Positions 12,378 through 50,783 of a stretch of 64,000 bases of DNA are shown here, piece after piece. Below the pieces are notes generated by a model. It was not told where the DNA came from, did not search any database, and saw only the letters and a program-made list of their open reading frames with translations. The stretch lies in the NCBI GenBank assembly GCA_963804165.1, contig CAWDPO010000017.1:288001-352000 (forward strand), in the 5' to 3' direction. Origin of the DNA: an uncultured delta proteobacterium. GTDB lineage: Bacteria; Desulfobacterota; Binatia; UBA9968. Made by a program: the position numbers and the translations under genes. Numbering within the stretch: the stretch's first letter is position 1; each line of letters starts with the position of its first letter.

Positions 12378-12396
12378 AAGCGTTCAAATCGTTCAA
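12365..12396. repeat. Solo GTTCAA arm of the GTTCAA/TTGAAC element family
   Basis: gttcaa at 12365, 12382 and 12391 around the stop codon. Confidence 0.5.
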
Positions 12397-27894: not shown

Positions 27895-28989
27895 TCACTG
27901 ACTCAAGATTCTTTTCAGGGCGGCGCTAATATCGGGTGGTTGGTTGACGACTTCCTTCGCTAACGCTGCCAACTCCTCACCGTTGACCGGCCGCGGTTCC
28001 CAGCCTTTTTTTGCAACATCTTCCTGGAACTCGGGATCGGAAAATATCTTCCAATAGGCTTCGCGCAGCAGTTTGACCCGCTCGGGCGGTAGTCCCGGCG
28101 TGGCCACGATAGGCATCGAGCCAAAACCCCACAAGCCCAAGTAAGTGTTCACCAAGCGGCGCTTGGCGTCGGCGATTTTGTATTGGTCCATCAGTTCGAA
28201 GATGGTTGGCACATCGGGGATTTTCGGATGGCGCTGCTTCTCAGTGTGCAGCCAGATGCGCACAAAGCCTTTCTTATGCCAGGAGATGAATGGTTCGCGG
28301 GCAAAAAAACCGTCGATGGTGATGGCGCGGCAGTTTACCTCGCCCCTTTCCATCGCCAAGTCTTGATCGGCGCCACCCGGATAGCCGCTGATCACTTTAA
28401 ATTTCATGCCCAAGGATTCTTCGAGCAGCCGGGGAATGTCATAACCGGTGCTGCCCACGCCAGTCGCCGAACAGCGCGGCGGATCGTTGGACTGGCGCAA
28501 CTGATCCAAGCTTTTTTGCGGCGCGTCGCTGCGCATGAAGAGCAGATGGCCGGCGCGATAAGGTGTGCCGATCCAGGAATATTTGGGCCAGTCGAATTGC
28601 ACTTCCTTGCGCCCGGTCAACTGCGCCATGATGAGCGCGCCGCCAAAGGAGCCCAGGCTAAGTCCATCCGGTTTGGTCATGTTGTAAACGTGATTGGCGG
28701 CGATCATCGAGCCGGCCCCGGGCATGTTTTGAATGATGAAGTTGGGATTGCCCGGAAGATACTTGCCCATGAAGCGCCCGTAGGTGCGCGCGTATTGGTC
28801 ATGGTTATCGCCCGGTTGGTAGCCGACGATGACGCGGATGGTTTTACCTTGGTAGAAAGGCGTCTGGGCAGACGCCCGTTCAATGTTCAAGGGGTTCAAA
28901 AGTTCAAGGACGGAAAGACCGAGAAGTCCGAACAGCTTGAACGTTGGAACCCATGGACTCGTGAACATATTGTTAAGCCGGTATGTCAC
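27895..28989 (-). CDS. tctC: TctC/Bug-family substrate-binding protein (array gene 15, carries palindromic leader)
   Basis: FYQGK, QNMPGAG, KPDGL, YPGG and DVPT motifs. Confidence 0.9.
   Translation of the reverse strand: MTYRLNNMFTSPWVPTFKLFGLLGLSVLELLNPLNIERASAQTPFYQGKTIRVIVGYQPGDNHDQYARTYGRFMGKYLPGNPNFIIQNMPGAGSMIAANHVYNMTKPDGLSLGSFGGALIMAQLTGRKEVQFDWPKYSWIGTPYRAGHLLFMRSDAPQKSLDQLRQSNDPPRCSATGVGSTGYDIPRLLEESLGMKFKVISGYPGGADQDLAMERGEVNCRAITIDGFFAREPFISWHKKGFVRIWLHTEKQRHPKIPDVPTIFELMDQYKIADAKRRLVNTYLGLWGFGSMPIVATPGLPPERVKLLREAYWKIFSDPEFQEDVAKKGWEPRPVNGEELAALAKEVVNQPPDISAALKRILSQ
28878..28966. repeat. 89-bp GTTCAA/TTGAAC palindromic leader element (TTGAAC-side arm degenerate)
   Basis: 4x gttcaa, 29-nt spacer, then ttgaac/tggaac/tggact/gtgaac. 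Confidence 0.8.
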
Positions 28990-29010
28990 GGGGCCTCCCC
29001 TTTAACTGGA

Positions 29011-30099
29011 TCACTTTGCCAGCAACTTTTTCAACGACTCCGTGATTTCCGGCGGTTGATTGACGACGTCCCTTGCGAGCGTCTGCAACTCTTCGCCACC
29101 GATGAACTCGACTTCCCATTTGCGCTTCTTCAACTCTTCTTGAAACTCCGGATCCTTGAACATCTTGGCAAACGCATCGCGCAGAATTTGCGTTCGATCC
29201 GCCGGCGTGCCGGGGGTCGCTACGATCGGTCGGGAGCCGAATCCCCAGATGCCGAGATAGGTATTGACCAAGCGCCGCTTGGAATCGGACACTTTGTATT
29301 GGTCCATCAATTCGAAGACCGTCGGCACGTCGGGCAGCTTGGGATGGCGCTGGCGTTCCGTTTGCAGCCACACTCGAACGAAGTTTTTCTTCACCCAGGT
29401 TGGGAAGGGCTCTCGTTGGAAAAATGATTCGATGATAAACGCACGGCAATGAACCTCGCCGCGCTCCAAAGCGAGATCTTGATCGGCGCCGCCGGGGTAG
29501 CCGCTGATGACGCGGAACTTGAAACCCAACGCTTCTTCGAGCAGCTTCGGCAAATCGTAACCAGTGCTGCCGACGCCGGTTGCCGAACATTTCGGCGGAT
29601 CGTTGGTTTGGCGCAGATCTTCAAAAGTTTTGTACGGCGCGTCGGTGCGCATGTATAAAAGATGGCCGCCGCGGTCGGGAGTCATGATCCAGGCATATTT
29701 CGGCCAGTCGAACTGGACTTCCTTGCGCCCCGTCAACTGCGCCATGAACAGCGCTCCGCCGATGGAGCCTAGCGTCAAGCCGTCCGGCTTGGTCAAGTTG
29801 AAGACGTGGTTGGCGGCGATCATCGAGCCGGCGCCAGGCATGTTTTGCACGACGAAATCGGGATTGCCGGGAATATGCTTGCCGAGAAAGCGTATGTAGG
29901 TTCGCGCCCACAAATCATGACTGTCGCCGGGCTGGTAGCCGACGACGATGCGAATGGTCTTGCCCTGATAGAAATTTGCTTGCGCAAAGGCTTGTTCAAG
30001 GTTCAAAGGGTTCAACAGTTCAACGACGAACAAAAGAAACAGGCTTAATCCGTTGAACGTTTGAACGTTTGAACGGTTGAACCAATGCGTTGAAATCAT
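29011..30099 (-). CDS. tctC: TctC/Bug-family substrate-binding protein (array gene 14, palindromic leader)
   Basis: Same motifs; start ATG 30099 after GGTGAGG. Confidence 0.9.
   Translation of the reverse strand: MISTHWFNRSNVQTFNGLSLFLLFVVELLNPLNLEQAFAQANFYQGKTIRIVVGYQPGDSHDLWARTYIRFLGKHIPGNPDFVVQNMPGAGSMIAANHVFNLTKPDGLTLGSIGGALFMAQLTGRKEVQFDWPKYAWIMTPDRGGHLLYMRTDAPYKTFEDLRQTNDPPKCSATGVGSTGYDLPKLLEEALGFKFRVISGYPGGADQDLALERGEVHCRAFIIESFFQREPFPTWVKKNFVRVWLQTERQRHPKLPDVPTVFELMDQYKVSDSKRRLVNTYLGIWGFGSRPIVATPGTPADRTQILRDAFAKMFKDPEFQEELKKRKWEVEFIGGEELQTLARDVVNQPPEITESLKKLLAK
29994..30082. repeat. 89-bp GTTCAA/TTGAAC palindromic leader element
   Basis: 4x gttcaa, 29 nt, 4x ttgaac. Confidence 0.92.
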
Positions 30100-30119
30100 A
30101 CTACGCCTCACCTTCAAAA

Positions 30120-31202
30120 CTATTTCGCCAACAATTTTTTTAGCCACTCGACCACTTCCGGCGGTTGATCGATGACTTCCTTCGCAAGCGCCTGGAGGTC
30201 TTCGCCGCTGGTCGGCCGGATCTCCCAGCCGCTTTTTTTCGCTTCGGCAAGGAAGTCGGGATCCTTCATAGTCTTGGCAAAGGCATCGCGCAGGATCCTT
30301 ACACGATCCGCGGGGATGCCCGGAGTCGCCAGGATCGGCCAGGCACCAAAGCCGCCGACACCCAGATAGACAAGCATTTGGCGGCGCTTGATCTCCGGCG
30401 TTTTGTATTGGTCCATCAATTCGAAAAGTGTCGGGACCTCGGGAATCCTGGGATTACGCTGCCGCGAGGTTTGCAGCATGATGCGGACGAAGCCGGTCTT
30501 GTGCCAAGTGACAAAGGGTTCGCGGGCGAAAAACGCCGCAATGGTAATAGCGCGGCATAGCGCCTCGCCTCTTTCGATCGCCAGATCCATTTCGGCGCCG
30601 CCGGGGTAACCGGTGATCAGGCGGAATTTCAAGCCGACCATCTCTTCAAGCAACTTGGGCACGTCGTGGCCGCTGGTGCCGACGCCGGTGGCGCTGCAGC
30701 GCGGCGGCTCTTTGGCGCTGCGGATGTCGTCGAGCGTCTTATAGGGGGAGTCCGAGCGCATGAATAACAAATGGCCGTTGCGCTCCGGCGCGCCGATAAA
30801 GTTAAACTTCGTCCAATCGAATTTGGCTTCTTTGCTGCCGACGAGCTGCGCATAGTAAAGGGCGGGAGAGGGGGAGCCTAGGGTCAAGCCGTCGGGCTTG
30901 GCGACGTTGTACACGTGATTGGCCGCGATCATGCCGCCCGCGCCCGGCATATTCTGCACCAAGATCGCCGGATTGCCGGGAATGTGTTTACCCATACTGC
31001 GCGAATAGGCGCGCGCGAAGAGATCGTGAGTGTCGCCGGGCAAGTTGCCGACGATAATGCGCACGGTCTTGCCCTGGTAGAAATTCGCTTGCGCGAATGC
31101 CCGTTCAACGTTCAAAGGGTTCAATAGTTCAACGACGGAGAAAATCAAGAGTCCGACAACCTTGAACGCTTGAACCTTTGAACTTTTGAACGAGTTCGTC
31201 AT
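30120..31202 (-). CDS. tctC: TctC/Bug-family substrate-binding protein (array gene 13, palindromic leader)
   Basis: Bug motifs; leader FKSSKVQAFKV...ELLNPLNVE-RAFAQ. Confidence 0.9.
   Translation of the reverse strand: MTNSFKSSKVQAFKVVGLLIFSVVELLNPLNVERAFAQANFYQGKTVRIIVGNLPGDTHDLFARAYSRSMGKHIPGNPAILVQNMPGAGGMIAANHVYNVAKPDGLTLGSPSPALYYAQLVGSKEAKFDWTKFNFIGAPERNGHLLFMRSDSPYKTLDDIRSAKEPPRCSATGVGTSGHDVPKLLEEMVGLKFRLITGYPGGAEMDLAIERGEALCRAITIAAFFAREPFVTWHKTGFVRIMLQTSRQRNPRIPEVPTLFELMDQYKTPEIKRRQMLVYLGVGGFGAWPILATPGIPADRVRILRDAFAKTMKDPDFLAEAKKSGWEIRPTSGEDLQALAKEVIDQPPEVVEWLKKLLAK
31103..31191. repeat. 89-bp GTTCAA/TTGAAC palindromic leader element
   Basis: 4x gttcaa, 29 nt, 4x ttgaac. Confidence 0.92.
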
Positions 31203-31223
31203 TTGACCCTTCCGCCGCGGCCG

Positions 31224-32321
31224 TTACATACCCAACACCTTTTTCATCCGTTCGACAACCTCAGGCGGTGTAGCCATGGCTTCTTTGACCAACGTTTCGA
31301 TTTCATCCCAATGCGATGGATAGATCTCGAGCTTGCGCCGTTCCGCCTCCGCCAAAAACGCCGGGTCGCCAACTGACTTGTCGAACGCGTCGCGCAGGAT
31401 CTTTAGCCGGTCGGCCGGCACTCCCGGCGGCGCAATGATTGGCCGTCCCAAATCGCTGGCAATCAAGATAACTTTGGCGAGGCTTCGCACCGGATCGGGC
31501 GTTTTGTAGCGGTCCATAATCTCATAGATCGTCGGCACATCTTTGAGGCGCGCGTCGCGCTTGCTGCCGGTTTGATAAAGCACGCGCACGAAGTTTTTCT
31601 TGCGCCAGGAGAAAAAAGGCTCGCGGGAATGAAAGGTAGTTATGGTGAATGATCGGCAGACCACCTCGCCCCTTTCAACCGCGAGCTCGATATCCTGTCC
31701 GGCTTGATAGCCGGCGACGATGTCGAATTTGGCGCCAATGGCTTCTTCCAGGAGCTTGGGAATGTAATAGCCCGTCGAGGCAATGCCGCTGGCGCCGCAT
31801 TTTGGCGGATGAGTTGCGGCGCGCACGTCGTCGATGGTTTTGTAGGGTGCGTCTGCGCGCATGTACATCATATGGTTCGAACTCACCGGACTCCCAAACT
31901 TATTCTAGTCATACTTGACCTCCGGTCGTTTCACGAGTTGGTCCAAGTAAAGCGCGGGATAGATCGCTCCAAGGGTCAAGCCGTCAGGCTTGGCAATGGT
32001 GTAGACCTGGTTTGCGGCAACCAGTGAGGCGGCGCCGGCGACATTCTGAATGATGATGTTGGGATTCCCGGGAATGTATTTCGGCAGAAACTCCGCGAGC
32101 AAGCGCGGGTAGAGGTCGTAAACGTCTCCAGGCTTTGTGCCGACGATGAAGGAAATCGTTTTGCCTTGGTAGAAATTCGCTTGCGCGAATGCCAGTTCAA
32201 GGTTCAAAGGGTTCAAAAGTTCAACGCCGGAAAGGATCAACAGTCCGAGAACTTTGAACGCTTGAACCGTTGAACTTTTGAACCGGGAGTGGAGGGAGAC
32301 GACTGAGCCATAATTCACCAT
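31224..32321 (-). pseudogene. tctC: TctC/Bug-family gene (array gene 12) with in-frame TAG and adjacent 3-codon deletion
   Basis: ORFs 31905-32321 and 31224-31886 are in the same frame: EVKYD*NKF---GSP versus paralog EAKYDWGKFLWIGSP. Confidence 0.85.
32195..32283. repeat. 89-bp GTTCAA/TTGAAC palindromic leader element
   Basis: 4x gttcaa, 29 nt, 4x ttgaac. Confidence 0.92.
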
Positions 32322-32378
32322 ACACCTCCCGTTTTTGACAATCTGCTCGTCGAGCGTGATCGCGGTTTTGGGGCGGAA

Positions 32379-33458
32379 TTAATTCCCGAGCACCCACTTC
32401 ATCCGTTCGATCACTTCCTTCGGTTGAACGATGACCTCTTGCGCGAGGGATTCTAGTTCGGCACCGGTAAGCGGATCCACATCCCAACCGCGCTTCGCAG
32501 TTTCAGCGAGGAGTTCGGGATCTTTTAGCGTCTTTGAATAGGCCTCGCGGAGAATTTTGGTTTGCTCGGCCGACAAACGCGGCGGAGCGGTGATCGGCCG
32601 GCCTAGGGTCGCCGCGGTCAAGATCACTTTGGCAAGTCGTTTGCCGCTATCCGGAGTTTTGTATTGCTGCATCAGCTCATTGAGCGTGGGTACATCCTTC
32701 AAACGCTCGTCGCGCTTCGCGCCCGATTGCACGACAGGGCGAATGAAACCCGATTTGTGCCAGCGCTTGTAGGGCTCGCGGCCGAAGTAGGTCGCGATCA
32801 ACGGCGACCAGCAGACTACTTCGTTGCGCTCCACAGCCAAGTCGATTTCCGAGCCGCCTTGATAGCCGCTGACGACGGTCGTCTTGACCCCCAACGTGTC
32901 GTCCAGGAGCCGCGGAAAATAAAGACCGCTGTTGCCGGTTCCCGTGTTGCCGCATTTCGGCGGTTCCTTGGCATTGCGCAAATCTTCGATGGTTTTGAAA
33001 GGCGAATCGGCGCGAATGAAATGCACGATGTCATTCTTTTCCGGTGAGCCGATCCATGTGAACTTTCCCCAATCGAACTTCACTTCCGGACGCGCGACCA
33101 GTTGGTCGAAGTAAAGCGCCGGGTTGAAGGAACCGAGAGTCAGTCCATCGGGTTTGGCGACGCCGTAGATGTAGTTTGCAGCGACGGCACCGCCCGCCCC
33201 CGGCATATTCTGCACGACTACCGTCGGATTGCCGGGAATATGTTTGCCGATATGCTGCGCCATCAGGCGCGCCCACAAATCGTACCCGCCGCCCGCCGCG
33301 GTACCGACAATCACCCTAACGGTTTTGCCTTGGTAGACATTCGCTTGCGCGAATGCCGGTTCAAGGTTCAAAGGGTTCAAAAGTTCAAAGGCCAGAGCGA
33401 ATACGAATCCGAGAACCTTGAACGGTTGAACCTTTGAACTTTTGAACGGCCTTGGCAT
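32379..33458 (-). CDS. tctC: TctC/Bug-family substrate-binding protein (array gene 11, palindromic leader)
   Basis: GGGYDLWAR, QNMPGAGG and KPDGLTLG motifs. Confidence 0.9.
   Translation of the reverse strand: MPRPFKSSKVQPFKVLGFVFALAFELLNPLNLEPAFAQANVYQGKTVRVIVGTAAGGGYDLWARLMAQHIGKHIPGNPTVVVQNMPGAGGAVAANYIYGVAKPDGLTLGSFNPALYFDQLVARPEVKFDWGKFTWIGSPEKNDIVHFIRADSPFKTIEDLRNAKEPPKCGNTGTGNSGLYFPRLLDDTLGVKTTVVSGYQGGSEIDLAVERNEVVCWSPLIATYFGREPYKRWHKSGFIRPVVQSGAKRDERLKDVPTLNELMQQYKTPDSGKRLAKVILTAATLGRPITAPPRLSAEQTKILREAYSKTLKDPELLAETAKRGWDVDPLTGAELESLAQEVIVQPKEVIERMKWVLGN
33359..33447. repeat. 89-bp GTTCAA/TTGAAC palindromic leader element
   Basis: 4x gttcaa, 29 nt, 4x ttgaac. Confidence 0.92.
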
Positions 33459-33461
33459 TTA

Positions 33462-34547
33462 TCATTCCCGCCCGAGCACCCACTTCATACGCTCGATGAT
33501 TTCTTTGGGCTGGGTCATGACCTCTTTCGACAGGGCTTGCAGTTCTTCGCCTTTGGTTGGATTGACTTCCCATCCCTGTTTGGCCGCGTCAGCGAGCAAT
33601 TCCGGGTCGGCGATGGCTTTGGCATAGGCGTCGCGGAGAATTTTGACGCGGTCAGCGGGTGTGCCCGGCGGAGCGCCGATTGGCCGGCCGAGGGTGGCGG
33701 CCGTCAGAATCACTTTTGCGAGACGCTGGCCCGCCTCGGCAGTCTTGTATTGCTGCATGAGCTCGTTAAGCGTTGGAGTGTCCTTCAGACGCGCATCGCG
33801 CTTGGCGCCGGTTTGTATCAGGACGCGTACATAGCCGGACTTATGCCAGCGTCTGTAGGGCTCGCGGCCAAAATAAGTCGCGAGCAGAGGCGACCAGCAG
33901 TAGACTTCGCCGCGCTCGATGGCCAATTCGATATCGGGGGCGCCGGGGTAGCCGCTGACGATTTGAGTTTTGATGCCGAGAGTTTCTTCGAGCAGCCGGG
34001 GAATATAGTGGCCGGTGGAGCCGGTGCCGGTGCTGCCGCATTTGGCCGGCTCCTTGGCGTTGCGCAGATCTTCGACGGTTTTGAAAGGCGTGTCGGCGCG
34101 CATGTAGTAGACGACGTCGTTTTTTTCCGGCGATCCGATCCAGTTAAATTTGGCCCAATCGAATTTCACTTCGGATCTGCCGACAAGTTGGTCGAAATAA
34201 AGTGCGGGGTTGACGGCACCGAGGGTCAAACCGTCGGGTTTGGCGACGCTATAGACATAGTTGGCGCCAATGATGTTGCCGGCGCCAGGCATGTTCTGCA
34301 CCACAATCGACGGGTTTCCTGGGATATGTTTGACGATGTGACGCGCCGTGAGCCGCGCCCAGAGATCGTAGCCGCCGCCTGTGGTCGAAGCGACGACCAT
34401 CGTGATGGTTTTGCCTTGGTAGAAGGGCGTCTGGGCAGACGCCCGTTCAACGTTCAAGGGGTTCAAAAGTTCAAGGGCCAGAACGGAGAAGAGTCCGAGA
34501 ACCTTGAACCCTTGAACTTTTGAACTCTTGAACTGAGTTTTCATCAT
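33462..34547 (-). CDS. tctC: TctC/Bug-family substrate-binding protein (array gene 10, palindromic leader)
   Basis: Bug motifs; ATG abuts the upstream TGA. Confidence 0.9.
   Translation of the reverse strand: MMKTQFKSSKVQGFKVLGLFSVLALELLNPLNVERASAQTPFYQGKTITMVVASTTGGGYDLWARLTARHIVKHIPGNPSIVVQNMPGAGNIIGANYVYSVAKPDGLTLGAVNPALYFDQLVGRSEVKFDWAKFNWIGSPEKNDVVYYMRADTPFKTVEDLRNAKEPAKCGSTGTGSTGHYIPRLLEETLGIKTQIVSGYPGAPDIELAIERGEVYCWSPLLATYFGREPYRRWHKSGYVRVLIQTGAKRDARLKDTPTLNELMQQYKTAEAGQRLAKVILTAATLGRPIGAPPGTPADRVKILRDAYAKAIADPELLADAAKQGWEVNPTKGEELQALSKEVMTQPKEIIERMKWVLGRE
34445..34533. repeat. 89-bp GTTCAA/TTGAAC palindromic leader element
   Basis: 4x gttcaa, 29 nt, 4x ttgaac. Confidence 0.92.
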
Positions 34548-35627: not shown

Positions 35628-35655
35628 TTACTAGTTCGTCTGCAGCGGTACGCTG

Positions 35656-36687: not shown

Positions 36688-36713
36688 AGGCTCTCCTTGT
36701 GAGAATACTCGAG

Positions 36714-37742
36714 TTACGTCCCCAATAGTTTTTTCATTCGTTCCACGACGTCCGGCGGTTGCGCTATGATTTCTTTTCCCAAAGCTTCCAGTTCTTCGCC
36801 GGAAACCGGATCCAATTCCAGCTTTTTCTTTTTGGCATCCTCAAGGAGCTCCGGATCGTTGACCGTCTTCATGAAGGCATCACGGAGAATCTTCACCCGG
36901 TCCGCCGGAATGCCGGGCGTGGCGACGATGGGACGACCGATTTCGTTGGCGGCTAGTATCACCGCCGCCAAGCGCTTCCCTGAATCGGGAGTTTTGTGTT
37001 GGTCCATGAGCTCGGGAAGTGTTGGAACGTCGGGCAAGAGAGCGTCCCGCTTTTTGCCGGTTTGAATGATGACCCGCACAAATCCTTTTTTGCGCCAGGT
37101 ATGAAAAGGCTCGCGGGCGAAAAAAGCGGCGATGGTGAATGCGCGGCATTGCACTTCGCCGCGCTCGACCGCAAGATCGACATCCGTGCCGGAGTTGTAA
37201 CCGGTGACGACGTTGAACTTCGCGCCGATCGTTTCCTCTAGGAGTTTGGGCAGGTAGTACGCCGACGATGCGGTGCCTTCGGCGCCGCACTTGGGCGGGA
37301 CGGAGGCTTTACGAATGTCTTCGATGGTTTTGTACGGTGTATCGCTGCGCATGTAGAGCAGATGATGCGATACGGTTGTGTTGCCGATCCAGGTAAACTT
37401 TTGCCAATCGAACTTGACCTCTTTTCGGCCGACCAGTTGATCGAAGTAGAGCGCAGGTTGGATCGAGCCGATGGTGAGGCCGTCTGGTTTGGCGACCTCG
37501 TAGATGTAGTTGGCCGCAACCATTGAGGCAACGCCGGGCATGTTTTGTACGATGATGTTGGGCGCACCAGGAATATGTTTGGGGATGAACTGGGCAACCA
37601 TGCGCGCGTAGAGATCGTACACGCTGCCGGCCGGCGTGCCCGCTACCAGCCGGATGGTTTTGCCCTGATAGAAGGGCGCTTGGGCTTGAACGAAAATAGG
37701 CGAGAGAACGACGAGGAGTAATGCTGAGATGCTTGGAAGCAT
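36714..37742 (-). CDS. tctC: TctC/Bug-family substrate-binding protein (array gene 7, ordinary signal peptide)
   Basis: Bug motifs; start MLPSIS at 37742 after AGAGG. Confidence 0.9.
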   Translation of the reverse strand: MLPSISALLLVVLSPIFVQAQAPFYQGKTIRLVAGTPAGSVYDLYARMVAQFIPKHIPGAPNIIVQNMPGVASMVAANYIYEVAKPDGLTIGSIQPALYFDQLVGRKEVKFDWQKFTWIGNTTVSHHLLYMRSDTPYKTIEDIRKASVPPKCGAEGTASSAYYLPKLLEETIGAKFNVVTGYNSGTDVDLAVERGEVQCRAFTIAAFFAREPFHTWRKKGFVRVIIQTGKKRDALLPDVPTLPELMDQHKTPDSGKRLAAVILAANEIGRPIVATPGIPADRVKILRDAFMKTVNDPELLEDAKKKKLELDPVSGEELEALGKEIIAQPPDVVERMKKLLGT

Positions 37743-37955
37743 GAATGCCTCTTTATTTGGAACGCTACAGTTCCGGATAATCGGTTTGAATTGCGAATCT
37801 AAAAGGTCCAGCTGATTCCGTCGATAGAGTTCGTCAGTAGTTTTCCCGAAGCAATTCCGTTCGTCCCTTCGAGAAGACCTCAGCACGAATGGAGAAGATC
37901 AAAAAAGGATTGATCACTTTTCCATTCGTGTCGAGTGTCTCGCGGCATCAATTCG

Positions 37956-38981
37956 TCAGTCACCCAACAGCTTGCGCATGCGCGCGACAACGTCGGGCGG
38001 CGTAGCCATGACGTCTTTGGCCAAGGAGGCCATCTCATCCCACTGGGTCGGATCGATTTCGAGCCGGCGTTTTTCTGCCTCCGCCAAGAAGGCTCCTTCG
38101 GTGACTGTCTTGTCGAACGCATCGCGCAAAATCTTCACCCGGTCCAGCGGCACGCCCGGAGCAAAAACCAGCGGACGTCCGAAGTCGCCTGAAGCGAGAA
38201 TGACTTTGGCGAGGCTGCGTCCGGCATCACCGACTTTGTACCTGTCCATCGCCTCGTAAATTGTCGGAGATTCCTTAAGACGCGGATCGCGCTTGGTGCC
38301 GGTTTGGATGAGAACGTTGACAAAATTTTTCTTGCGCCAGGAAATGAAAGGCTCGCGGGCGTGGTACGCGGTAATCGTGAACGCGCGGCATTGCAACTCA
38401 CCGCGCTCGACGGCCAGATCGATATCCTGGCCCGACACGTAGCCCGACACGATATCGAACTTGGTGCCGAGGACTTCCTCCATGAGCTTCGGCATGTAGT
38501 ATCCGGTGGAGGCGACGCCGGTGGCGCCGCACTTGGGCGCGGTGTTGGCCTTGCGCACGTCGTCGACGGATTTGTAGGGCGTGTCGGCGCGCATATACAA
38601 GAGATGATTCGATTTGACCGGGCTACCGATCCAGAGAAACTTGCCCCAGTCGTATTTCGCTTCCGGTTTTTTGATCAATTGATCGAAATAAAGCGCCGGA
38701 TAAATCGCGCCGATCGTCAAGCCGTCCGGTTTCGTGACATTGTAGACGTGGTTGGCGGCGATCAACGAAGCAGCCCCGGGCATATTTTGCACGATGATGT
38801 TGGGATTGCCCGGTATGTGCTTGGTCATGTACTCCGCAAGCAGCCGCGGATAGAGATCGTAGACATCGCCGGCTTTGGTGCCGACGACGATGCTGATGGT
38901 CTTGCCCTGATAGAAGGGCGTCTGCGCCAGTAGAGCCGAGCTCCACCCGAGAGTGAGCACGAGGACGAGAATCAGAATCAT
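37956..38981 (-). CDS. tctC: TctC/Bug-family substrate-binding protein (array gene 6, ordinary signal peptide)
   Basis: Bug motifs; start MILILV after AAGGAG. Confidence 0.9.
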   Translation of the reverse strand: MILILVLVLTLGWSSALLAQTPFYQGKTISIVVGTKAGDVYDLYPRLLAEYMTKHIPGNPNIIVQNMPGAASLIAANHVYNVTKPDGLTIGAIYPALYFDQLIKKPEAKYDWGKFLWIGSPVKSNHLLYMRADTPYKSVDDVRKANTAPKCGATGVASTGYYMPKLMEEVLGTKFDIVSGYVSGQDIDLAVERGELQCRAFTITAYHAREPFISWRKKNFVNVLIQTGTKRDPRLKESPTIYEAMDRYKVGDAGRSLAKVILASGDFGRPLVFAPGVPLDRVKILRDAFDKTVTEGAFLAEAEKRRLEIDPTQWDEMASLAKDVMATPPDVVARMRKLLGD

Positions 38982-39067
38982 AGTGTTTCTCCTTCCCGCC
39001 GGAATTTGGGCCGAAGCATATCCCTCAAGGCTGCTTGTGCGCAACCTTGAGGGGTGCCGACTGGTTG

Positions 39068-40102
39068 CTATTTTCCGCTCAACAATTTCTCCATACGCTG
39101 CACGACGTCCGGGGTTGACGCCATGACTTCTTTCGACAACGCCTCGATCTCCGCGCCGCTCGCCGGATCCATTTCGAGCCGGCGCTTTTCGGCGGTTGCC
39201 AAAAGCGCAGGATCGCTGACTGACTTGTCGAAGGCGTCGCGCAAAATCTTCATGCGGTCCGCAGGCACGCCTGGAGGGGTGACCAGAGGACGACCAAATT
39301 CGCCGGCAGACAAAACGACTTTCGCTAGGCTCCTTCCGGCGGCGCTGGTTTTGTATTTGTCCATCAACTCATAAATCGTCGGCGCGTCCTTGAGGCGCGC
39401 GTCGCGCTTGGCGCCGCTCTGCATCAGCGTGTTGACGAAACCGCGCTTGCGCCACGAGATGAAGGGTTCGCGGGCAAAATAAGCAGTGATCGTAAAGGCG
39501 CGGCAAACTACCTCGCCGCGCTCGACGGCGAGGTCGACGTCCTGGCCGGATTGATAACCTAAAACGATATCGAACTTCGTGCCGAGAGTTTCTTCCATGA
39601 GCTTCGGCAGATAGTAGCCGGTCGAAGTGATGCCGTTGGAGCCGCATTTCGGCGCTGCCGACGCATTCTTAATGTCGTCCATCGACTTATAAGGTGCATC
39701 CGAGCGCATGTACAAAAGATGATTCGACGTCACCGGGTTGCCGACCCAACCGAATTTCGGCCAATCGAACTTAACCTCGGGTTTTTTCGTGAGCTGCTCG
39801 AAATAGAGCGCCGGGTAAATCGCGCCGATCGTCAGGCCATCCGGCTTGGCGACAGTGTAAACTTGATTGGCCGCGATCATCGACGCGGCGCCGGGCACAT
39901 TCTGGATGATGATGTTCGGATTTCCGGGTATGTACTTCGGCATGAACTCGGCGAGCATGCGGGGATACAGGTCGTAAGCGTCGCCGGCCTTGGTGCCGAC
40001 GATAATCGTAATCGTTTTTCCTTGATAGAACGGGGTCTGGGCGTCGACATGACTGATCCCAAACAACGTCGTTAATAATAGGGCAACGAGCAAACGTAGC
40101 AT
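39068..40102 (-). CDS. tctC: TctC/Bug-family substrate-binding protein (array gene 5, ordinary signal peptide)
   Basis: Bug motifs. Confidence 0.9.
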   Translation of the reverse strand: MLRLLVALLLTTLFGISHVDAQTPFYQGKTITIIVGTKAGDAYDLYPRMLAEFMPKYIPGNPNIIIQNVPGAASMIAANQVYTVAKPDGLTIGAIYPALYFEQLTKKPEVKFDWPKFGWVGNPVTSNHLLYMRSDAPYKSMDDIKNASAAPKCGSNGITSTGYYLPKLMEETLGTKFDIVLGYQSGQDVDLAVERGEVVCRAFTITAYFAREPFISWRKRGFVNTLMQSGAKRDARLKDAPTIYELMDKYKTSAAGRSLAKVVLSAGEFGRPLVTPPGVPADRMKILRDAFDKSVSDPALLATAEKRRLEMDPASGAEIEALSKEVMASTPDVVQRMEKLLSGK

Positions 40103-40168
40103 TTAGTTCCTAACCTCCTCGGATAATTTTTTCCGCACGAACCTTACCATTTAAAAAGCTACTTTCAA

Positions 40169-41203
40169 CTAATTGCTGAGGATTTTTTTAACCCGGGCCA
40201 GGACATCCGGGGGCTGTTGCAAAATCTGCTGAGCAAGCTTTTCCAAACTCGCGCCGCTGGTCGGATCGACGTCCATTTTCTGTTTTTGCGTCTCGGCGAG
40301 CAGCTCAGGATCTTTCATGGCCTGATCGAACGCCTGACGCAGCATATTGACCCGGTCAGCCGGAATACCCGGCGTGCCAATGATCGGCCGTCCAAAGGAC
40401 TCGGCGGCGAGAATGACCTGGGCAACGCGGCGGCTGCTTTCCGGCACTTTTTCTTTCTCGAAGATCTCCGCGATCGTCGGCACGTCCGGGATTCTTTCGT
40501 CGCGTTTGGCACCGGTATAGAGGAGAACACGCACGAAGTTCTTCTTTTGCCAACTCAAGAACGGCTCGCGTCCAAAGTACGGCGACGCGGTCATGCCTCT
40601 GCACATGACTTCACCTTTTTCGACGGCGATGTCGATCTCGGATCCGCCCGGATAGCCGAGAACGGTGTTGATTTTCAAAGGCGGCAACGTGTCTTCAAGC
40701 ATGCGCGCGAGGATGAAATCGGTGCTCACGGTGCCGGTGGAGCCGCATTTGGGCGGCTCTTTGGCATTTTTGATATCGGCGATGGATTTGTACGGGCTAT
40801 CGGCGCGCATATAAAGAATCATCGGCTCACTCACCGGAGAGCCGATCCAGGCAAACTTGCGCAGGTCGAATTTCACTTCCGCACGGCCGACGATCTGGTC
40901 GAGATAAAGTCCACTGCTGGGAAAACCGATGGTCAGGCCGTCGGGCTTGGCCACGCTGTAGACGTAATTGGCCGCAACCACCGAGCCCGCGCCCGGCATA
41001 TTCTGCACGATGAAAGTGGGGTTACCCGGAATATATTTCGGCATGTAGCGCGCGAGCAGGCGCGCCCAGCGATCGTAAAAACCGCCGGTGGTAAAACCGA
41101 CGACCACTCGGATCTGCTTCTCTTGATAAAATGGCGTGGCTTGGGCGTGAAGCTGCGAAACCCAGGCAAAGACTAGACTTAGCGCTAAAATTGCAACTGT
41201 CAT
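40169..41203 (-). CDS. tctC: TctC/Bug-family substrate-binding protein (array gene 4, ordinary signal peptide)
   Basis: GGFYDRWAR subfamily; start MTVAIL after AAGGGAG. Confidence 0.9.
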   Translation of the reverse strand: MTVAILALSLVFAWVSQLHAQATPFYQEKQIRVVVGFTTGGFYDRWARLLARYMPKYIPGNPTFIVQNMPGAGSVVAANYVYSVAKPDGLTIGFPSSGLYLDQIVGRAEVKFDLRKFAWIGSPVSEPMILYMRADSPYKSIADIKNAKEPPKCGSTGTVSTDFILARMLEDTLPPLKINTVLGYPGGSEIDIAVEKGEVMCRGMTASPYFGREPFLSWQKKNFVRVLLYTGAKRDERIPDVPTIAEIFEKEKVPESSRRVAQVILAAESFGRPIIGTPGIPADRVNMLRQAFDQAMKDPELLAETQKQKMDVDPTSGASLEKLAQQILQQPPDVLARVKKILSN

Positions 41204-41261
41204 GTGTCTCCCTTTTGTTCGCACCACCTTCGGATCGCGGTGCCGAGGATTTTGCACGTGC

Positions 41262-42350
41262 TTATTCAAGAAGTTTTTTGACGCGTTTGAGGACGGCCGG
41301 GGGTTGATTCATAACTCTTTTCGCCAATGCCTGCAGCTGTTCGCCGGTGACCAGCTCGATGTCCATGCGCGCTTTCTTGGCCTCGGCCAAAAGCTCGAGA
41401 TTATTCATAGCTTTGACGTAGGCCTCGCGGAGTATATTCACCCGGTCCGCCGGCGTGCCCGGCGCCACGATCATGGGCCGGCCGAAGTCGCCGCCGCGCA
41501 AAATGACATCAGCGACCCGACGGCTCTCATCCGCAGTATTTTCCTTATCAAAAATCTCGTAAATCGTCGGCACCTCTCCGACGCGCGCATCGCGCTTCTC
41601 CGAGGTTTGCAGGATATGTTGATCGAAACCTTTCTTGTGCCAGGTATCGAAAGGCTCGCGGCCGAAGTGGGGGGCAATGGTCATGCCGCGGCACTGAACT
41701 TCGCCCTTTTCCACGGCGATATCGATTTCACTGCCGCCGGCGTATCCCAAGATCGTGTTGATCTTGATGCCCAGCGTGTCCTCGAGCACTCGCGCGATCA
41801 AGTAGTCGGCGCCGGCCGTACCGGTGGCGCCGCACTTGGGCGGCTCGGGCAGTTTCCTCATGTCCTGGACGGATTTGAACGGAGCATCGGCGCGCGCGTA
41901 GAGGATGATATCGCTTTTCTCCGGCGAGCCGATGAAGTAGCCCTTGGTGATATCGAAGCGGACTTCTTTGCGCCCGGCGATTTGATCGAGATAGACGCCG
42001 TAGTTGGGCATGACGAGGGTAAGTCCGTCGGGTTTGGCGACGCCGAAAACATGGTTCATCGCGATCATCGATCCCGCGCCCGCCATGTTCTGGACGATGA
42101 AGTTAGGATTTCCCGGAATGTAAAGAGGCATAAAGCGGCCGAGCAGGCGCGCCCAGCGATCATAAAAGCCGCCCGGAGTGAGACCGACGATGATGCGGAG
42201 GGTCTTGCCTTGGTAAAAATTCGCCTGCGCGAATGTTTGTTCAACGTTGAAAGGGTTCAAGAGTTCAAGGACAGAGAAGACTAAGACTCCGAACACCTTG
42301 AACATTTGAACTTTTGAATCTTTGAATCGATTTTTCGAGAAATTGTTCAT
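41262..42350 (-). CDS. tctC: TctC/Bug-family substrate-binding protein (array gene 3, palindromic leader)
   Basis: GGFYDRWAR subfamily; GAGGT RBS. Confidence 0.9.
   Translation of the reverse strand: MNNFSKNRFKDSKVQMFKVFGVLVFSVLELLNPFNVEQTFAQANFYQGKTLRIIVGLTPGGFYDRWARLLGRFMPLYIPGNPNFIVQNMAGAGSMIAMNHVFGVAKPDGLTLVMPNYGVYLDQIAGRKEVRFDITKGYFIGSPEKSDIILYARADAPFKSVQDMRKLPEPPKCGATGTAGADYLIARVLEDTLGIKINTILGYAGGSEIDIAVEKGEVQCRGMTIAPHFGREPFDTWHKKGFDQHILQTSEKRDARVGEVPTIYEIFDKENTADESRRVADVILRGGDFGRPMIVAPGTPADRVNILREAYVKAMNNLELLAEAKKARMDIELVTGEQLQALAKRVMNQPPAVLKRVKKLLE
42239..42327. repeat. 89-bp GTTCAA/TTGAAC palindromic leader element (three units with single mismatches)
   Basis: gttcaa/gttgaa/gttcaa/gttcaa, 29 nt, ttgaac/ttgaac/ttgaat/ttgaat. 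Confidence 0.88.
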
Positions 42351-42358
42351 AACTTACC

Positions 42359-43450
42359 TCACTCCACCAAGACTTTTTTCACCCGCTCGACGACATCGCG
42401 CGGCTGATTCATCAGCTCTTTCATTAACCCTTGGAGTTCTTCGCCCGGGGTATGTTCCATGTCCATTTGACCCTTTTTTGCTTCTTCAATCAGGCCCGGG
42501 TCGCGCATCGCCTTGGCGTAGGCATCGCGCAACAACTTGACTCGATCCGGTGGGTTTCCGGGTCCGGCGACCATCGGCCGGCCAAATTCCCCGCTCGCCA
42601 TAATAATCCGCGCCACGCCGCGCATCACTTCGGGAGATTTGTATTGATCCATCAGCTCGAACAGCGTCGGCGCATCGCCCATGCGCGGATCACGCTTGGG
42701 TCCGCCTTGAAGAATATGGCGGTCGAAGCCTTTCTTGTGCCAACTGTCGAACGGCTCCCGGCCAAAATGCGGCGGGATGTCCATGCCGCGGCAAATGATC
42801 TCGCCGCGCTCGACGGCGACATCGATTTCAGAGCCGCCTTGATATCCGCTCACGGTGTTGAGTTTCGCCTTGAAAGCCTCGTCCATGATTTTGGCGAGCA
42901 AGTAACCGGTGCTCGCGGTGCCCGTCGAGCCGCACTTCGGCGGTTCTTTCGCTTGAATAATATCGCTGACGTTCTTGAACGGACTATCGGCGCGAAAATA
43001 AAGCATGGTCGGCGCTTTTTCCTGGGTGCCGATAAATTCAAATTTGCGCATGTCGAACTTGACTTCCCTGCGCCCGACGATTTGATCTAAATAGAGACTG
43101 TTGATCGGCACGAGCAGCGTCAGCCCATCTGCCTTAGCCAGATTGTAGACGTAGTTGGCGGCGATCACCGAGCTGGCGCCGGGCATATTTTGCACGACGA
43201 AATTGGGATTGCCGGGAATGTGTTTCGGCATGTAGCGCGACAGCAAGCGCGCCCAACGGTCGTAAAAGCCGCCGGGGGTGAAGCCGACGATGATGCGAAC
43301 GGTCTTGCCTTGGTAAAAATTCGCTTGCGCGAATGTTTGTTCAACGTTCAAAGGGTTCAAGAGTTCAAGGACAGAGAAAATTAGGACTCCGACAACCTTG
43401 AACGTTTGAACTTTTGAACCTTTGAACCGATTTTTCGAGAGATTGTTCAT
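42359..43450 (-). CDS. tctC: TctC/Bug-family substrate-binding protein (array gene 2, palindromic leader)
   Basis: GGFYDRWAR subfamily; GAGGT RBS. Confidence 0.9.
   Translation of the reverse strand: MNNLSKNRFKGSKVQTFKVVGVLIFSVLELLNPLNVEQTFAQANFYQGKTVRIIVGFTPGGFYDRWARLLSRYMPKHIPGNPNFVVQNMPGASSVIAANYVYNLAKADGLTLLVPINSLYLDQIVGRREVKFDMRKFEFIGTQEKAPTMLYFRADSPFKNVSDIIQAKEPPKCGSTGTASTGYLLAKIMDEAFKAKLNTVSGYQGGSEIDVAVERGEIICRGMDIPPHFGREPFDSWHKKGFDRHILQGGPKRDPRMGDAPTLFELMDQYKSPEVMRGVARIIMASGEFGRPMVAGPGNPPDRVKLLRDAYAKAMRDPGLIEEAKKGQMDMEHTPGEELQGLMKELMNQPRDVVERVKKVLVE
43339..43427. repeat. 89-bp GTTCAA/TTGAAC palindromic leader element
   Basis: 4x gttcaa, 29 nt, 4x ttgaac. Confidence 0.92.
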
Positions 43451-43458
43451 GACTTACC

Positions 43459-44526: not shown

Positions 44527-44659
44527 CGCAGGCCCCTCCTTGAGACCGATTGTCAGACTACGGGTTCGACAGTCTAGATCCTTTCCCGCAGACGAATGGG
44601 CGATTCGGCCGAGATACTGGGCAGTGGCTAATTTTTGCGGTGGGCCGAAAGGAAACGAA

Positions 44660-50605: not shown

Positions 50606-50783
50606 GGTCAAACCGTTCAAAAAGTTCAAGCCGTTCAAATCGTTCACCCCTCACCTTCCTTTCGACGCGGCCGGACCTTTCTCTCCCCCGCGACGCGGGG
50701 GAGATTCAAAGAGAGGGCTTGAACCCTTCGCAGCTCTCAGGGCAGGCTCCGCGAAGCGATTGAACAGCTTGAACGTCTGGAAC
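50606..50783. repeat. Free GTTCAA/TTGAAC element (9-bp period) with a nested CCCTC...GAGGG REP
   Basis: gttcaa at 50615/50624/50633, gttcac 50642; ttgaac at 50719/50760/50769, tggaac 50778; internal tctccccc-gcgacgc-gggggaga hairpin. Confidence 0.8.

What the first reader, a model, noticed from the sequence alone, without database searches (positions are those of the whole stretch)
28878..43427. An 89-bp palindromic DNA element encodes the signal peptide of 9 tandem tctC genes
Seen: nine copies (28878, 29994, 31103, 32195, 33359, 34445, 35528, 42239, 43339) have identical geometry: a 30-bp arm of 4x GTTCAA (periods 7/9/8), a 29-nt spacer, and a 30-bp arm of 4x TTGAAC (8/8/8). Each begins 11-38 nt into a tctC reading frame. 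In the coding sense the 5' arm gives the basic n-region (FKSSKVQAFK), the spacer gives the hydrophobic core (e.g. VLGLFSVLAL), and the 3' arm gives ELLNPLN(V/L)E just before an A-x-A-Q (or T-F-A-Q) cleavage site. The hexamers are conserved although they fall in all three codon phases, while the bases between them and the spacer vary. This points to constraint on DNA or RNA structure, not only on protein. Established precedent: Rickettsia palindromic elements insert in frame in genes, but I know of no description of a repeat forming a whole signal peptide. Inference: a mobile or regulatory palindrome was exapted as a dual-function leader (export signal plus mRNA hairpin or protein-binding site).
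Basis: partly seen in the sequence, partly recalled or inferred. Interest (0 to 1): 0.92.

Follow-up and report, generated by a model that had tools for sequence, protein, structure and literature searches.

The report
Palindromic repeat translated as signal peptide
In a soil bacterium, a small palindromic DNA repeat that is normally scattered between genes sits inside the start of nine neighbouring transporter-receptor genes, where it appears to be translated as their export signal.

Summary
Fifteen tandem TctC/Bug binding-protein genes lie on the minus strand (27895-44676). Nine start with an 89-nt GTTCAA/TTGAAC palindrome; six have ordinary signal peptides. The element is the leader-specific form of a dispersed, mostly intergenic repeat family: 233 arms at 192 loci in this genome, found in 41 of 90 genomes of the family.

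Translation is supported by a start codon 11-38 nt upstream, frame-preserving spacers (23, 29 or 32 nt), T-rich second codon positions in the spacer, an arm spacing that avoids in-frame TGA, and the lack of any other signal peptide. Export itself is not shown.

The arms are constrained as nucleotides. Between orthologs, synonymous divergence is 0.16 in the arms against 0.47 in the mature domain. Leaders do not follow the gene tree or orthology. In other genera the leader arms change together with that genome's own dispersed repeat.

No compensatory changes occur in the main stem, so sequence is conserved, not only pairing. Any RNA or DNA role of the hairpin is inferred. No transposase link was found, and four targeted literature searches found no description.

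The parts
28854..28966 (-). Leader module of g01: 89-nt palindrome (28878-28966) plus second hairpin on the cleavage-site codons. The 5' arm (coding sense) is decayed.
29970..30082 (-). Leader module of g02: palindrome 29994-30082 plus a weak second hairpin.
31079..31191 (-). Leader module of g03: palindrome 31103-31191 plus second hairpin (AFAQAN type).
32171..32283 (-). Leader module of g04 (pseudogene): palindrome 32195-32283 plus second hairpin.
33335..33447 (-). Leader module of g05: palindrome 33359-33447 plus second hairpin.
34421..34533 (-). Leader module of g06: palindrome 34445-34533 plus second hairpin (RASAQTP type).
35504..35616 (-). Leader module of g07: palindrome 35528-35616 plus second hairpin.
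42215..42327 (-). Leader module of g13: palindrome 42239-42327 (three variant hexamers) plus second hairpin.
43315..43427 (-). Leader module of g14: palindrome 43339-43427 plus second hairpin.
27895..28989 (-). g01, TctC/Bug binding protein, element-bearing; GTG start after GGGGAGG.
29011..30147 (-). g02, TctC, element-bearing. This is the longest ORF; the likely start is the ATG at 30099 after GGTGAGG.
30120..31202 (-). g03, TctC (PF03401), element-bearing.
31224..32321 (-). g04, TctC, element-bearing, with an in-frame TAG at 31905-31907 and a 3-codon gap: probable pseudogene.
32379..33458 (-). g05, TctC, element-bearing.
33462..34547 (-). g06, TctC, element-bearing.
34548..35627 (-). g07, TctC, element-bearing.
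35656..36687 (-). g08, TctC (PF03401) with an ordinary signal peptide; no element.
36714..37886 (-). g09, TctC with an ordinary signal peptide (longest ORF; likely start near 37742).
37956..39044 (-). g10, TctC with an ordinary signal peptide (longest ORF; likely start near 38981).
39068..40102 (-). g11, TctC with an ordinary signal peptide.
40169..41269 (-). g12, TctC with an ordinary signal peptide (longest ORF; likely start near 41203).
41262..42350 (-). g13, TctC, element-bearing.
42359..43450 (-). g14, TctC (PF03401), element-bearing; sister of the element-free g15.
43459..44676 (-). g15, TctC with an ordinary signal peptide (longest ORF; likely start near 44526).
26280..27779 (-). TctA membrane subunit (PF01970), downstream of the array.
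52550..52653 (.). Intergenic palindromic copy of the same family (4+4 hexamers, 47-nt spacer), 5 nt after the stop of an enoyl-CoA hydratase gene.
50615..50775 (.). Intergenic period-9 variant: three GTTCAA, a long spacer, then TTGAAC units.
59238..59266 (+). Single intergenic arm (4 hexamers) between a stop codon and the next start.
12365..12396 (+). Loose single arm (3 hexamers).

Best explanation
The unit is about 113 nt long. It has a long imperfect hairpin: four GTTCAA units, a 29-nt T-rich loop and four TTGAAC units. A short GC-rich hairpin follows. It is the leader-specific form of a lineage-specific, REP-like dispersed repeat of this group (source names for the closest homologs read 'Candidatus Bin...', taken as Candidatus Binatia).

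The family normally sits in intergenic DNA, typically just after stop codons. In this compact tandem TctC array, the 3' flank of each gene is also the 5' end of the next gene. There the element is read through in one frame:
- the first arm gives a lysine-rich n-region;
- the loop gives a 10-residue hydrophobic core;
- the second arm gives ELLNPLNxE;
- the small hairpin gives the AxA|Q signal-peptidase site.

It therefore most likely serves as a Sec-type signal peptide for nine of the fifteen paralogs.

Two constraints act on the same bases. Reading frame and hydrophobicity act at the protein level. Hexamer identity acts at the nucleotide level, as in the dispersed family. The leader behaves as a cassette: it does not follow the phylogeny of the gene behind it.

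Shown: membership of the repeat family, the nucleotide-level constraint, the coding signatures, the distribution, and the decoupling from gene phylogeny. Inferred: actual export, and any function of the hairpin. My preferred inferred role is an mRNA hairpin at cistron junctions that shields or delimits the upstream message, as REP elements do.
For: Family membership
- 233 arms of at least 3 exact hexamers lie at 192 loci.
- An nhmmer profile of the nine leaders finds 88 further loci on 26 contigs at E<=1e-3; 55 of them cover both arms.
- Spacers of non-leader copies share the GGTCAGA...TCCGA motif with the leader spacers.
- 168 of 233 arms lie outside crude gene calls, against 13.7% of random positions.
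- In co-directional gaps the median distance to the upstream stop is 10 nt. 28 arms lie between convergent genes and 14 between divergent genes.

Translation
- 6 of 9 copies have a GAGG/GGAG-type site before the start; the other 3 starts abut the upstream stop.
- Among 51 leaders with at least 2 exact hexamers per arm, the spacer is 29 nt in 33, 32 nt in 9 and 23 nt in 1. All three lengths keep one frame.
- In the spacer, second-codon-position identity is 0.76, against 0.46 and 0.53 at positions 1 and 3.
- The 8/9/7 spacing of the TTGAAC arm keeps every hexamer out of the TGA phase. It occurs only in leader copies. 7 of 10 other short-period (7-8 nt) palindromes have no open frame.
- The best 10-residue hydrophobicity is 2.76, against 2.73 in 98 ordinary TctC leaders, with 3-4 K/R before the core.
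- The other roughly 105 TctC loci of the genome all show ordinary signal peptides at this place.
- The mature domains are under strong purifying selection (pN/pS 0.08, 13 ortholog pairs).

Nucleotide constraint
- Third-position identity in the arms is 0.86.
- Between orthologs, arm pS is 0.158 against 0.465, and arm pN/pS is 0.78.
- The hairpin MFE is -31 to -59 kcal/mol (z -3.0 to -8.7).
- It is more stable than synonymous recodings, with z between -2.2 and -4.5 in 7 of 9 copies.
- The second hairpin occurs in at least four self-complementary sequence versions that code different residues. It is stronger than at the same place in 99 element-free TctC genes (mean -10.0 against -4.6 kcal/mol; z -2.7 against -0.16).

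Cassette behaviour
- The mature-domain tree needs at least 4 gains or losses of the element.
- In the variable leader parts, orthologs in different genomes are 0.566 identical. Non-orthologs are 0.563. Paralogs within one genome are 0.625.

Conservation
- In 10 other genomes of the genus, 29 of 32 orthologs (>=85% identity) of element-bearing genes have both arms and 3 have the 3' arm only. 12 of 12 orthologs of element-free genes have none.
- All 87 database proteins found with the leader alone are TctC: 84 by Pfam and 3 frameshifted or chimeric.

Co-variation with the dispersed family
- Genera g26 and g20 have diverged leaders.
- Their genomes carry 18-28 dispersed AAGGG-N3 arrays each, against 0 in this genome.
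- 15 of 15 such arrays checked in G112 are not at TctC starts.
- Those genera lack the GTTCAA palindrome (0 of 6 genomes).
Against: - Export was not tested and no signal-peptide predictor was available.
- The hydrophobic core is only 10 residues, bounded by K and E. It ends 16 residues before the FYQGK motif, against a median of 10 in ordinary paralogs (5 of 98 are at 16 or more). The c-region holds two acidic residues.
- 0 of 23 predicted stem pairs show a compensatory change in 37 sequences from 12 genomes. There is thus no covariation evidence for a structural role of the main hairpin.
- A stable hairpin 11-38 nt after a start codon should hinder translation (inference).
- Some leaders have lost the 5' arm yet remain open with a hydrophobic core: g01 here, and 5 of 49 relatives' genes with only the 3' arm. 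The palindrome is therefore not indispensable.
- The second hairpin beats synonymous recodings only modestly (z +0.6 to -3.1).
- A simple terminator scan does not flag the second hairpins.
- The loci in relatives were chosen through the pattern search, which biases them towards element-bearing clusters.
- Gene calls used for 'intergenic' are crude longest-ORF calls.
Confidence: 0.62

Rival explanations
1. Tolerated selfish passenger. The repeat has no RNA or DNA function of its own. It sits in the signal-peptide region because that region tolerates almost any sequence that is basic and then hydrophobic. The arms stay uniform through gene conversion with paralogous or dispersed copies, or through repeated overwriting, not through selection.
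For: - Hexamers are invariant with 0 compensatory changes.
- Leaders are decoupled from orthology and slightly more alike within a genome (0.625 against 0.566).
- Second-hairpin types are enriched by genome (6 of 10 of one type in G014).
- Arms also sit in frame in unrelated proteins.
- Leaders survive loss of the 5' arm.
Against: - The element state of each paralog is stable across 10 species: 29 of 32 and 12 of 12.
- The leader subtype is found only on TctC (87 of 87), although about 105 other TctC genes and many other secreted proteins were available.
- The family persists in 9 of 23 genera.
- At least four different second-hairpin sequences all stay self-complementary.
Confidence: 0.25
2. 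Not translated. The true starts lie downstream, or the nine genes are dead. The element would be an ordinary intergenic REP-like hairpin that gene callers read through.
For: - In-frame TTG codons exist inside the second arm.
- One of the nine genes is a pseudogene.
- The family is otherwise mostly intergenic.
- The c-region is atypical.
Against: - There is no signal peptide downstream of the element, and these are periplasmic receptors (PF03401).
- Mature-domain pN/pS is 0.08.
- Spacer lengths keep the frame in 43 of 51 leaders.
- The leader-specific 8/9/7 spacing avoids TGA.
- The spacer shows a T bias at codon position 2.
- A start codon with a ribosome-binding site lies just upstream.
Confidence: 0.08
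3. Operator array. The GTTCAA/TTGAAC hexamers are DNA binding sites for a regulator that controls each TctC gene.
For: Sequence rather than pairing is conserved. The hexamers are direct repeats arranged in inverted arms.
Against: - The family is spread over 192 loci next to unrelated genes, mostly after stop codons, with fewer in divergent promoter gaps (14 against 28 in convergent gaps).
- Periods of 7-9 bp do not keep one helical face (inference).
- No sigma-70-like promoter is called at the elements.
Confidence: 0.05

Closest known systems
REP / BIME (REPIN) elements of enterobacteria and pseudomonads (recalled knowledge)
   Same: Short imperfect palindromes with many copies per genome. They have lineage-specific sequence, are mostly extragenic and often lie just after stop codons. 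The recalled role is a 3' hairpin that stabilises the upstream message inside operons.
   Different: The arms are arrays of 3-5 hexamers at 7-9 nt periods, not a single stem. About half of the loci are single arms. None of the 18 Y1-transposase genes is consistently flanked by them. One subtype lies inside coding sequence and is apparently translated.
Rickettsia palindromic elements (RPE; recalled, Ogata et al. 2000)
   Same: A palindromic repeat family whose copies sit in frame inside protein-coding genes and are translated. This genome also has in-frame single arms in a molybdopterin oxidoreductase and an asparaginase-like protein.
   Different: As recalled, RPEs insert into internal loops of many unrelated proteins. 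Here one subtype forms the N-terminal export signal of one protein family. It is kept across species and genera and is exchanged among paralogs. A search for papers holding both 'Rickettsia palindromic element' and 'signal peptide' found none.
Sec-type (SPase I) signal peptides
   Same: A basic n-region, a hydrophobic core as hydrophobic as in the paralogs, and an AxA site homologous to that of the element-free paralogs.
   Different: The core is fixed at 10 residues. The c-region is about 13 residues with two glutamates, and the whole leader is about 40 residues. Its sequence is dictated by a DNA repeat.
Conserved leader cassettes of paralogous surface-protein families homogenised by gene conversion (recalled, general)
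   Same: The leader does not follow the phylogeny of the mature part.
   Different: Here the conserved part is a palindrome shared with intergenic repeats, and synonymous sites are the conserved ones.

Membership tests
TctC / Bug periplasmic binding proteins (PF03401) | Match to the Pfam TctC model above its cut-off | tested here: met
   Scores of 71.5, 42.7 and 55.9 bits against a cut-off of 27 for g03, g08 and g14. All 15 genes align along their length. TctA is adjacent.
Sec-type signal peptide | Positively charged n-region, hydrophobic h-region of about 7-15 residues, and small residues at -3 and -1 | tested here: met
   The n-region has a median of 3 K/R (1 in g01, 3-4 in the other eight) and a median of 0 D/E. 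The core is 10 residues (17 in g02) with mean Kyte-Doolittle hydrophobicity 2.76. An AxA|Q site follows.
Sec-type signal peptide | Short polar c-region (about 3-7 residues) and experimentally shown export and cleavage | tested here: not met
   The c-region is about 13 residues with two E. The core ends 16 residues before FYQGK, against a median of 10 in ordinary paralogs. Export and cleavage cannot be tested with these tools, and no SignalP was on hand.
REP / BIME-like dispersed palindromes | Many copies, imperfect palindrome, predominantly extragenic | tested here: met
   192 loci and 233 arms, of which 168 of 233 lie outside crude genes against 13.7% expected. 55 further loci match both arms.
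REP / BIME-like dispersed palindromes | Associated RAYT (Y1 transposase) gene flanked by the repeats | tested here: not met
   The genome has 18 PF01797 matches. Only 3 have any arm within 3 kb and none is flanked on both sides.
MITE | Terminal inverted repeats matching a transposon, and target-site duplication | tested here: inconclusive
   No consistent direct repeat is visible at the flanks of the 22 palindromic copies listed. No parent transposon was sought beyond Y1 transposases.
Rickettsia-type in-frame palindromic elements | Palindromic repeat family with copies inserted in frame in coding genes | tested here: met
   Nine leaders lie in frame. An arm lies in frame between the two MoCoBD domains of an oxidoreductase in all 10 loci compared (G000 plus 9 orthologs). 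Homology to RPEs was not tested; this is resemblance only.
Intrinsic terminator (second hairpin) | GC-rich stem followed directly by a U-run | tested here: not met
   The scan (which needs at least 5 T in 8) flags none of the nine second hairpins on the coding strand. The region holds 26 sites against 25.0 expected.
Any Rfam family | Covariance-model match at the gathering score | tested here: not met
   Only two sub-threshold chance matches in 27500-53000.
Structured RNA under selection for pairing | Compensatory base changes in stems | tested here: not met
   Main hairpin: 23 pairs, 0 with changes on both sides, in 37 sequences. The second hairpin has at least four alternative self-complementary versions, which is suggestive. 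It was not scored with a formal covariation test.

The most novel reading that the evidence does not exclude
GTTCAA-array hairpins are cis-elements read by an unknown lineage-specific factor that binds RNA or single-stranded DNA and acts at gene ends genome-wide. In the TctC arrays the same element has been domesticated as an exchangeable signal-peptide cassette. Export signal and message-level control would then be written in the same ~113 nt. The leader arms are forced to co-evolve with the genome's repeat family: GTTCAA in this genus, AAGGG-N3 in others.
Probability: 0.3. Interest if true: 0.9.

Novelty: new variant of a known kind. Interest (0 to 1): 0.78.

Why it matters
This would be a clear natural case of one stretch of DNA under two readings at once. 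It is a member of a dispersed palindromic repeat family and also the export signal of a protein family, and it has been kept over many species.

It shows how a signal peptide can be born from, or replaced by, non-coding repeat DNA and then move among paralogs as a cassette. It also gives a handle on what REP-like repeats do. Intergenic and coding copies can be compared within one genome, and leader arms and dispersed repeats change together between genera.

Practically, it warns annotators that repeat-derived N-termini in this group (Candidatus Binatia, by the truncated source names of the closest homologs) are probably real. It also offers ready-made constructs (leader plus or minus synonymous recoding) for testing RNA-structure effects on translation and secretion.

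Tried and rejected
Tried without result, or considered and set aside:
- RNA evidence: the look-up of sequencing runs listed no holder on record as RNA. The best holders are soil and rhizosphere DNA runs with shares of 0.25 or less. I did not run read laying, because contigs cannot show transcript ends.
- A first test for arms lying upstream of gene starts was uninformative: 38 of 153 in sense, 39 of 153 in antisense, 747 of 3000 at random positions. It was replaced by crude gene calls, which show no strong orientation bias towards starts.
- RAYT association was not found.
- Rfam gave nothing.
- The terminator and promoter scan was at chance level.
- The first pattern for the diverged repeat (AAGGG-N4) was mis-specified and found almost nothing. 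It was corrected to N3.
- One search failed on a bug of my own and was rerun.

Rejected reading: recent duplication plus protein constraint explains the hexamers. This was rejected.

Literature. Seven searches found no description of such a leader or repeat. For those I saw listings and abstract starts only. I read passages of PMC3119063, which proved irrelevant. Supplementary files were not consulted. References to REP, RPE and mal-operon work are recalled, not read.

Claims that touch genomes flagged unpublished:
- G005 is counted in the tallies.
- G093 is counted. Its locus L003 was read and held only ordinary leaders.
- G076 and G079 are counted.
No conclusion rests on them alone.

Full report
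**What is there**

The window is contig C17:288001-352000 of a 7.5-Mb, 56% G+C assembly. Source names for the closest homologs are cut off at 'Candidatus Bin...' (one reads 'Candidatus Binatia bacter...'), taken here as Candidatus Binatia metagenome-assembled genomes. Between 27895 and 44676 the minus strand carries fifteen head-to-tail genes for TctC/Bug periplasmic binding proteins. This is shown by PF03401 matches, by ORFs and translations, and by repeat families of 14-15 copies spaced about 1.1 kb apart. A TctA membrane subunit follows the array. Amidohydrolase, acyl-CoA dehydrogenase, thiolase and enoyl-CoA hydratase genes surround it.

Nine genes start with the reported 89-nt palindrome: g01-g07, g13 and g14, numbered from the low coordinate. 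Six genes (g08-g12, g15) have ordinary signal peptides. All fifteen converge on a homologous AxA|Q site followed by FYQGK. g04 has an in-frame TAG at 31905-31907 and a 3-codon gap, so it is probably a pseudogene.

**The observation**

All nine copies are at the stated places.
- Seven have all eight hexamers exact, a 29-nt spacer, and + strand periods of 7/9/8 and 8/8/8.
- The copies at 28878 and 42239 are partly decayed.
- The strict two-arm pattern occurs 8 times in the window, against 0.00 expected.
- In the genome it occurs 9 times, against 0 for a reversed control.
- The nine fold into long imperfect hairpins of -31 to -59 kcal/mol, with z of -3.0 to -8.7 against shuffles.
- Directly 3' in coding sense lies a second, short hairpin on the cleavage-site codons.

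**It belongs to a dispersed repeat family**

- The genome holds 233 arms of at least three exact hexamers at 192 loci. Of these, 153 are single arms and 22 are GTTCAA-then-TTGAAC palindromes with spacers of 21 to about 290 nt.
- A profile of the nine leaders scores them 104-126 bits. It then finds 88 other loci on 26 contigs at E<=1e-3, with a best score of 47.6 bits; 55 of these cover both arms.
- The window itself has intergenic copies at 52550-52653, 50615-50775, 59238-59266 and 12365-12396.
- Non-leader spacers share the GGTCAGA...TCCGA motif with leader spacers. The whole element is therefore homologous, not only the arms.
- With crude longest-ORF gene calls, 168 of 233 arms are intergenic, against 13.7% of random positions.
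- Single intergenic arms show no strong bias towards gene starts. They lie a median of 10 nt after the upstream stop in co-directional gaps. They are twice as common between convergent genes as between divergent genes (28 against 14). This is the niche of REP-type elements.
- In the TctC array the element begins 15-96 nt after the stop of the upstream gene (coordinates). That is the same niche, except that the next gene's start codon lies in between.

No Rfam family matches. The 18 Y1-transposase genes are not flanked by arms.

**Evidence that it is translated**

- Each element has a start codon 11-38 nt upstream. Six of nine have a GAGG/GGAG-type site. The other three starts abut the preceding stop.
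- Among 51 leaders from 11 genomes with at least two exact hexamers per arm, the spacer is 29 nt in 33, 32 nt in 9 and 23 nt in 1, all in one frame.
- Of the remaining 8, the values 37, 40 and 49 fit a mutated inner hexamer (inference). The values 30 and 33 shift the frame of the first arm, which stays open and basic in every frame.
- In intergenic copies the spacer length is unconstrained.
- Within the spacer, pairwise identity is 0.76 at codon position 2 but 0.46 and 0.53 at positions 1 and 3. That is the signature of hydrophobic codons.
- TTGAAC gives TGA in one phase. The 8/9/7 spacing of that arm puts the four hexamers in the other two phases only. This spacing is found in all leader copies and in no other palindrome of the genome. 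Seven of ten other short-period palindromes have no open frame at all.
- The leaders have a basic n-region (1 K/R in g01, 3-4 in the other eight) with a median of no acidic residues. Their 10-residue core is as hydrophobic as in 98 ordinary TctC leaders of the same genome (2.76 against 2.73).
- The genome has about 114 TctC loci. All others show ordinary signal peptides at this position, and the nine have no alternative.
- The mature domains are under strong purifying selection (pN/pS 0.08 over 13 ortholog pairs).

Against this, the core ends 16 residues before FYQGK (median 10 in the paralogs). The c-region holds two glutamates. No predictor or experiment was available.

**Evidence for a nucleotide-level constraint**

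- Among the nine paralogs, third-position identity is 0.86 in both arms. It is 0.53, 0.54 and 0.52 in the spacer, the second hairpin and the mature start.
- Between orthologs of different species, synonymous divergence is 0.158 in the arms against 0.465 in the mature domain. Non-synonymous divergence is higher in the arms (0.123 against 0.036). Arm pN/pS is therefore 0.78. The arms are conserved as bases whatever the codon position.
- The main hairpin is more stable than 500 synonymous recodings with genome codon usage in 7 of 9 copies, with z between -2.2 and -4.5. g01 and g13, the decayed copies, are not.
- The second hairpin exists in at least four different self-complementary versions. They code RASAQTP, AFAQAN, PAAAQTPP and ASAQQTP, so residues before and after the cleavage site change together.
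- That hairpin is stronger than the same position in 99 element-free TctC genes (mean -10.0 against -4.6 kcal/mol; z -2.7 against -0.16).
- Against a purely structural role, 23 predicted pairs of the main stem show no compensatory change in 37 sequences from 12 genomes. The hexamers are simply invariant. Sequence identity is kept, not only pairing.

**The leader behaves as a cassette**

- On a maximum-likelihood tree of the mature domains, the element-bearing genes need at least four gains or losses. g14 is sister to the element-free g15, and g04 sits among g08, g10 and g11.
- The state of each paralog is nevertheless stable between species. In fetched clusters of 10 other genomes of the genus there were 71 TctC starts. 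Of the orthologs (>=85% identity) of element-bearing genes, 29 of 32 have both arms and 3 have only the 3' arm. 12 of 12 orthologs of element-free genes have none. These loci were chosen through pattern hits, which biases them towards element-bearing clusters.
- In the variable leader parts, orthologs in different genomes are no more alike than non-orthologs (0.566 against 0.563). Paralogs in one genome are slightly more alike (0.625). Second-hairpin types are enriched by genome.
- This points to exchange of 5' ends by recombination or gene conversion.

**Distribution**

- Searching with the 42-residue leader alone found 87 proteins. 84 carry PF03401, and the other three are frameshifted or chimeric TctC starts.
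- At least 26 of the 120 best full-length homologs carry the leader by a strict motif.
- The two-arm DNA pattern occurs in 41 of 90 genomes of the family and 9 of 23 genera. It occurs in 0 of 16 genomes of two other families of the order. The reversed control gives 0 everywhere.

**Co-variation with the dispersed family**

- In genera g26 and g20 the TctC leaders are diverged palindromes built on AAGGG / CCCTT units at period 8, for example peptides with RVEGIKG...LIPLSL.
- Those genomes carry 18-28 dispersed AAGGG-N3 arrays each. This genome has none. 15 of 15 arrays examined in G112 are not at TctC starts.
- Those genera lack the GTTCAA palindrome (0 of 6 genomes).
- Leader arms thus track whichever repeat the genome propagates. 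A signal peptide function alone would not require this.

**Most likely mechanism**

- Shown: a REP-like family member sits at the junctions of a compact tandem array. It is kept in frame, and its arms are held as nucleotide sequence.
- Inferred at about 70%: it is translated and works as a Sec signal peptide with an unusually long c-region.
- Inferred at about 35%: as RNA, the hairpins act at cistron junctions like REPs, protecting or delimiting the upstream message.
- The main alternative is that the repeat is a tolerated passenger, homogenised by conversion. An operator-array reading, and a reading in which the element is not translated, fit the data poorly (see rivals).

**Novelty**

Searches of the paper library found no description of this repeat or of a repeat-encoded signal peptide (passages of one irrelevant paper). 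I saw listings only, and no supplementary files. Comparisons with REP/BIME and Rickettsia palindromic elements rest on recalled knowledge. I class the finding as a new variant of a known kind: in-frame palindromic repeats.

**Limits**

- No SignalP run, no expression data and only crude gene calls.
- The genome is 81% complete.
- Tallies include genomes flagged unpublished (G005, G093, G076, G079).

Noticed in passing
window 31905-31907 (minus strand), gene g04 31224-32321: An in-frame TAG sits where paralogs have Trp, and there is a 3-codon gap. This element-bearing TctC gene is probably a pseudogene.
   Followed up: partly
G000:C30:36185-36214 (locus L059/L062): A single repeat arm lies in frame (peptide FKGSNVQKFN) between the two molybdopterin-binding domains of a 652-aa oxidoreductase subunit. 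The same variable segment is present in all 10 loci aligned (G000 itself plus 9 orthologs from other genomes). In six further genomes the match is split at this point.
   Followed up: partly
G000:C38:66400-66427 (locus L060): A single arm lies in frame in the linker between the N- and C-terminal domains of an asparaginase-like protein.
   Followed up: no
window 50615-50641; also G000 C30:43339-43437, C3:44774-44884 and C11:85251-85330: A second subfamily has arms with a strict 9-nt period (GTTCAA plus 3 nt). These stay open in several frames.
   Followed up: no
G000 contigs C12 (about 8-47 kb), C34 (about 114-152 kb) and C2 (about 213-263 kb): These are hot spots with many arms. On C34 there are repeated units of arm plus ATTCGGAGGGG-like ribosome-binding sequence plus a short repeated ORF. 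This suggests a larger repeated unit or gene family that uses the arm as its 5' flank.
   Followed up: no
G000 whole genome: The 7.5-Mb genome has about 114 TctC-like loci. It also has 18 Y1-transposase (PF01797) matches, many in open frames of about 320 aa.
   Followed up: partly
locus L046 (G014:C3), TctC starts at 9678 and 10798: In the G014 genes whose best matches are g06 (87.5% identity) and g05 (77.2% identity, below the 85% orthology threshold used here), the 5' arm is replaced by an ordinary basic start. The 3' arm (ELLNPLNLE) and the second hairpin persist. The palindrome can therefore decay while the leader survives.
   Followed up: partly
window 36618-36633 (minus strand), gene g08: An element-free paralog also has a small hairpin on its cleavage-site codons, flagged by the terminator scan. 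22 of 99 element-free TctC genes reach -7 kcal/mol at this place.
   Followed up: no
G000:C35:210757-211686 (locus L061) and C10:25896, C10:32942: Other TctC genes with ordinary signal peptides have repeat arms in the 5' untranslated stretch just upstream of their starts. This is a possible intermediate state for capture of the element into the reading frame.
   Followed up: no
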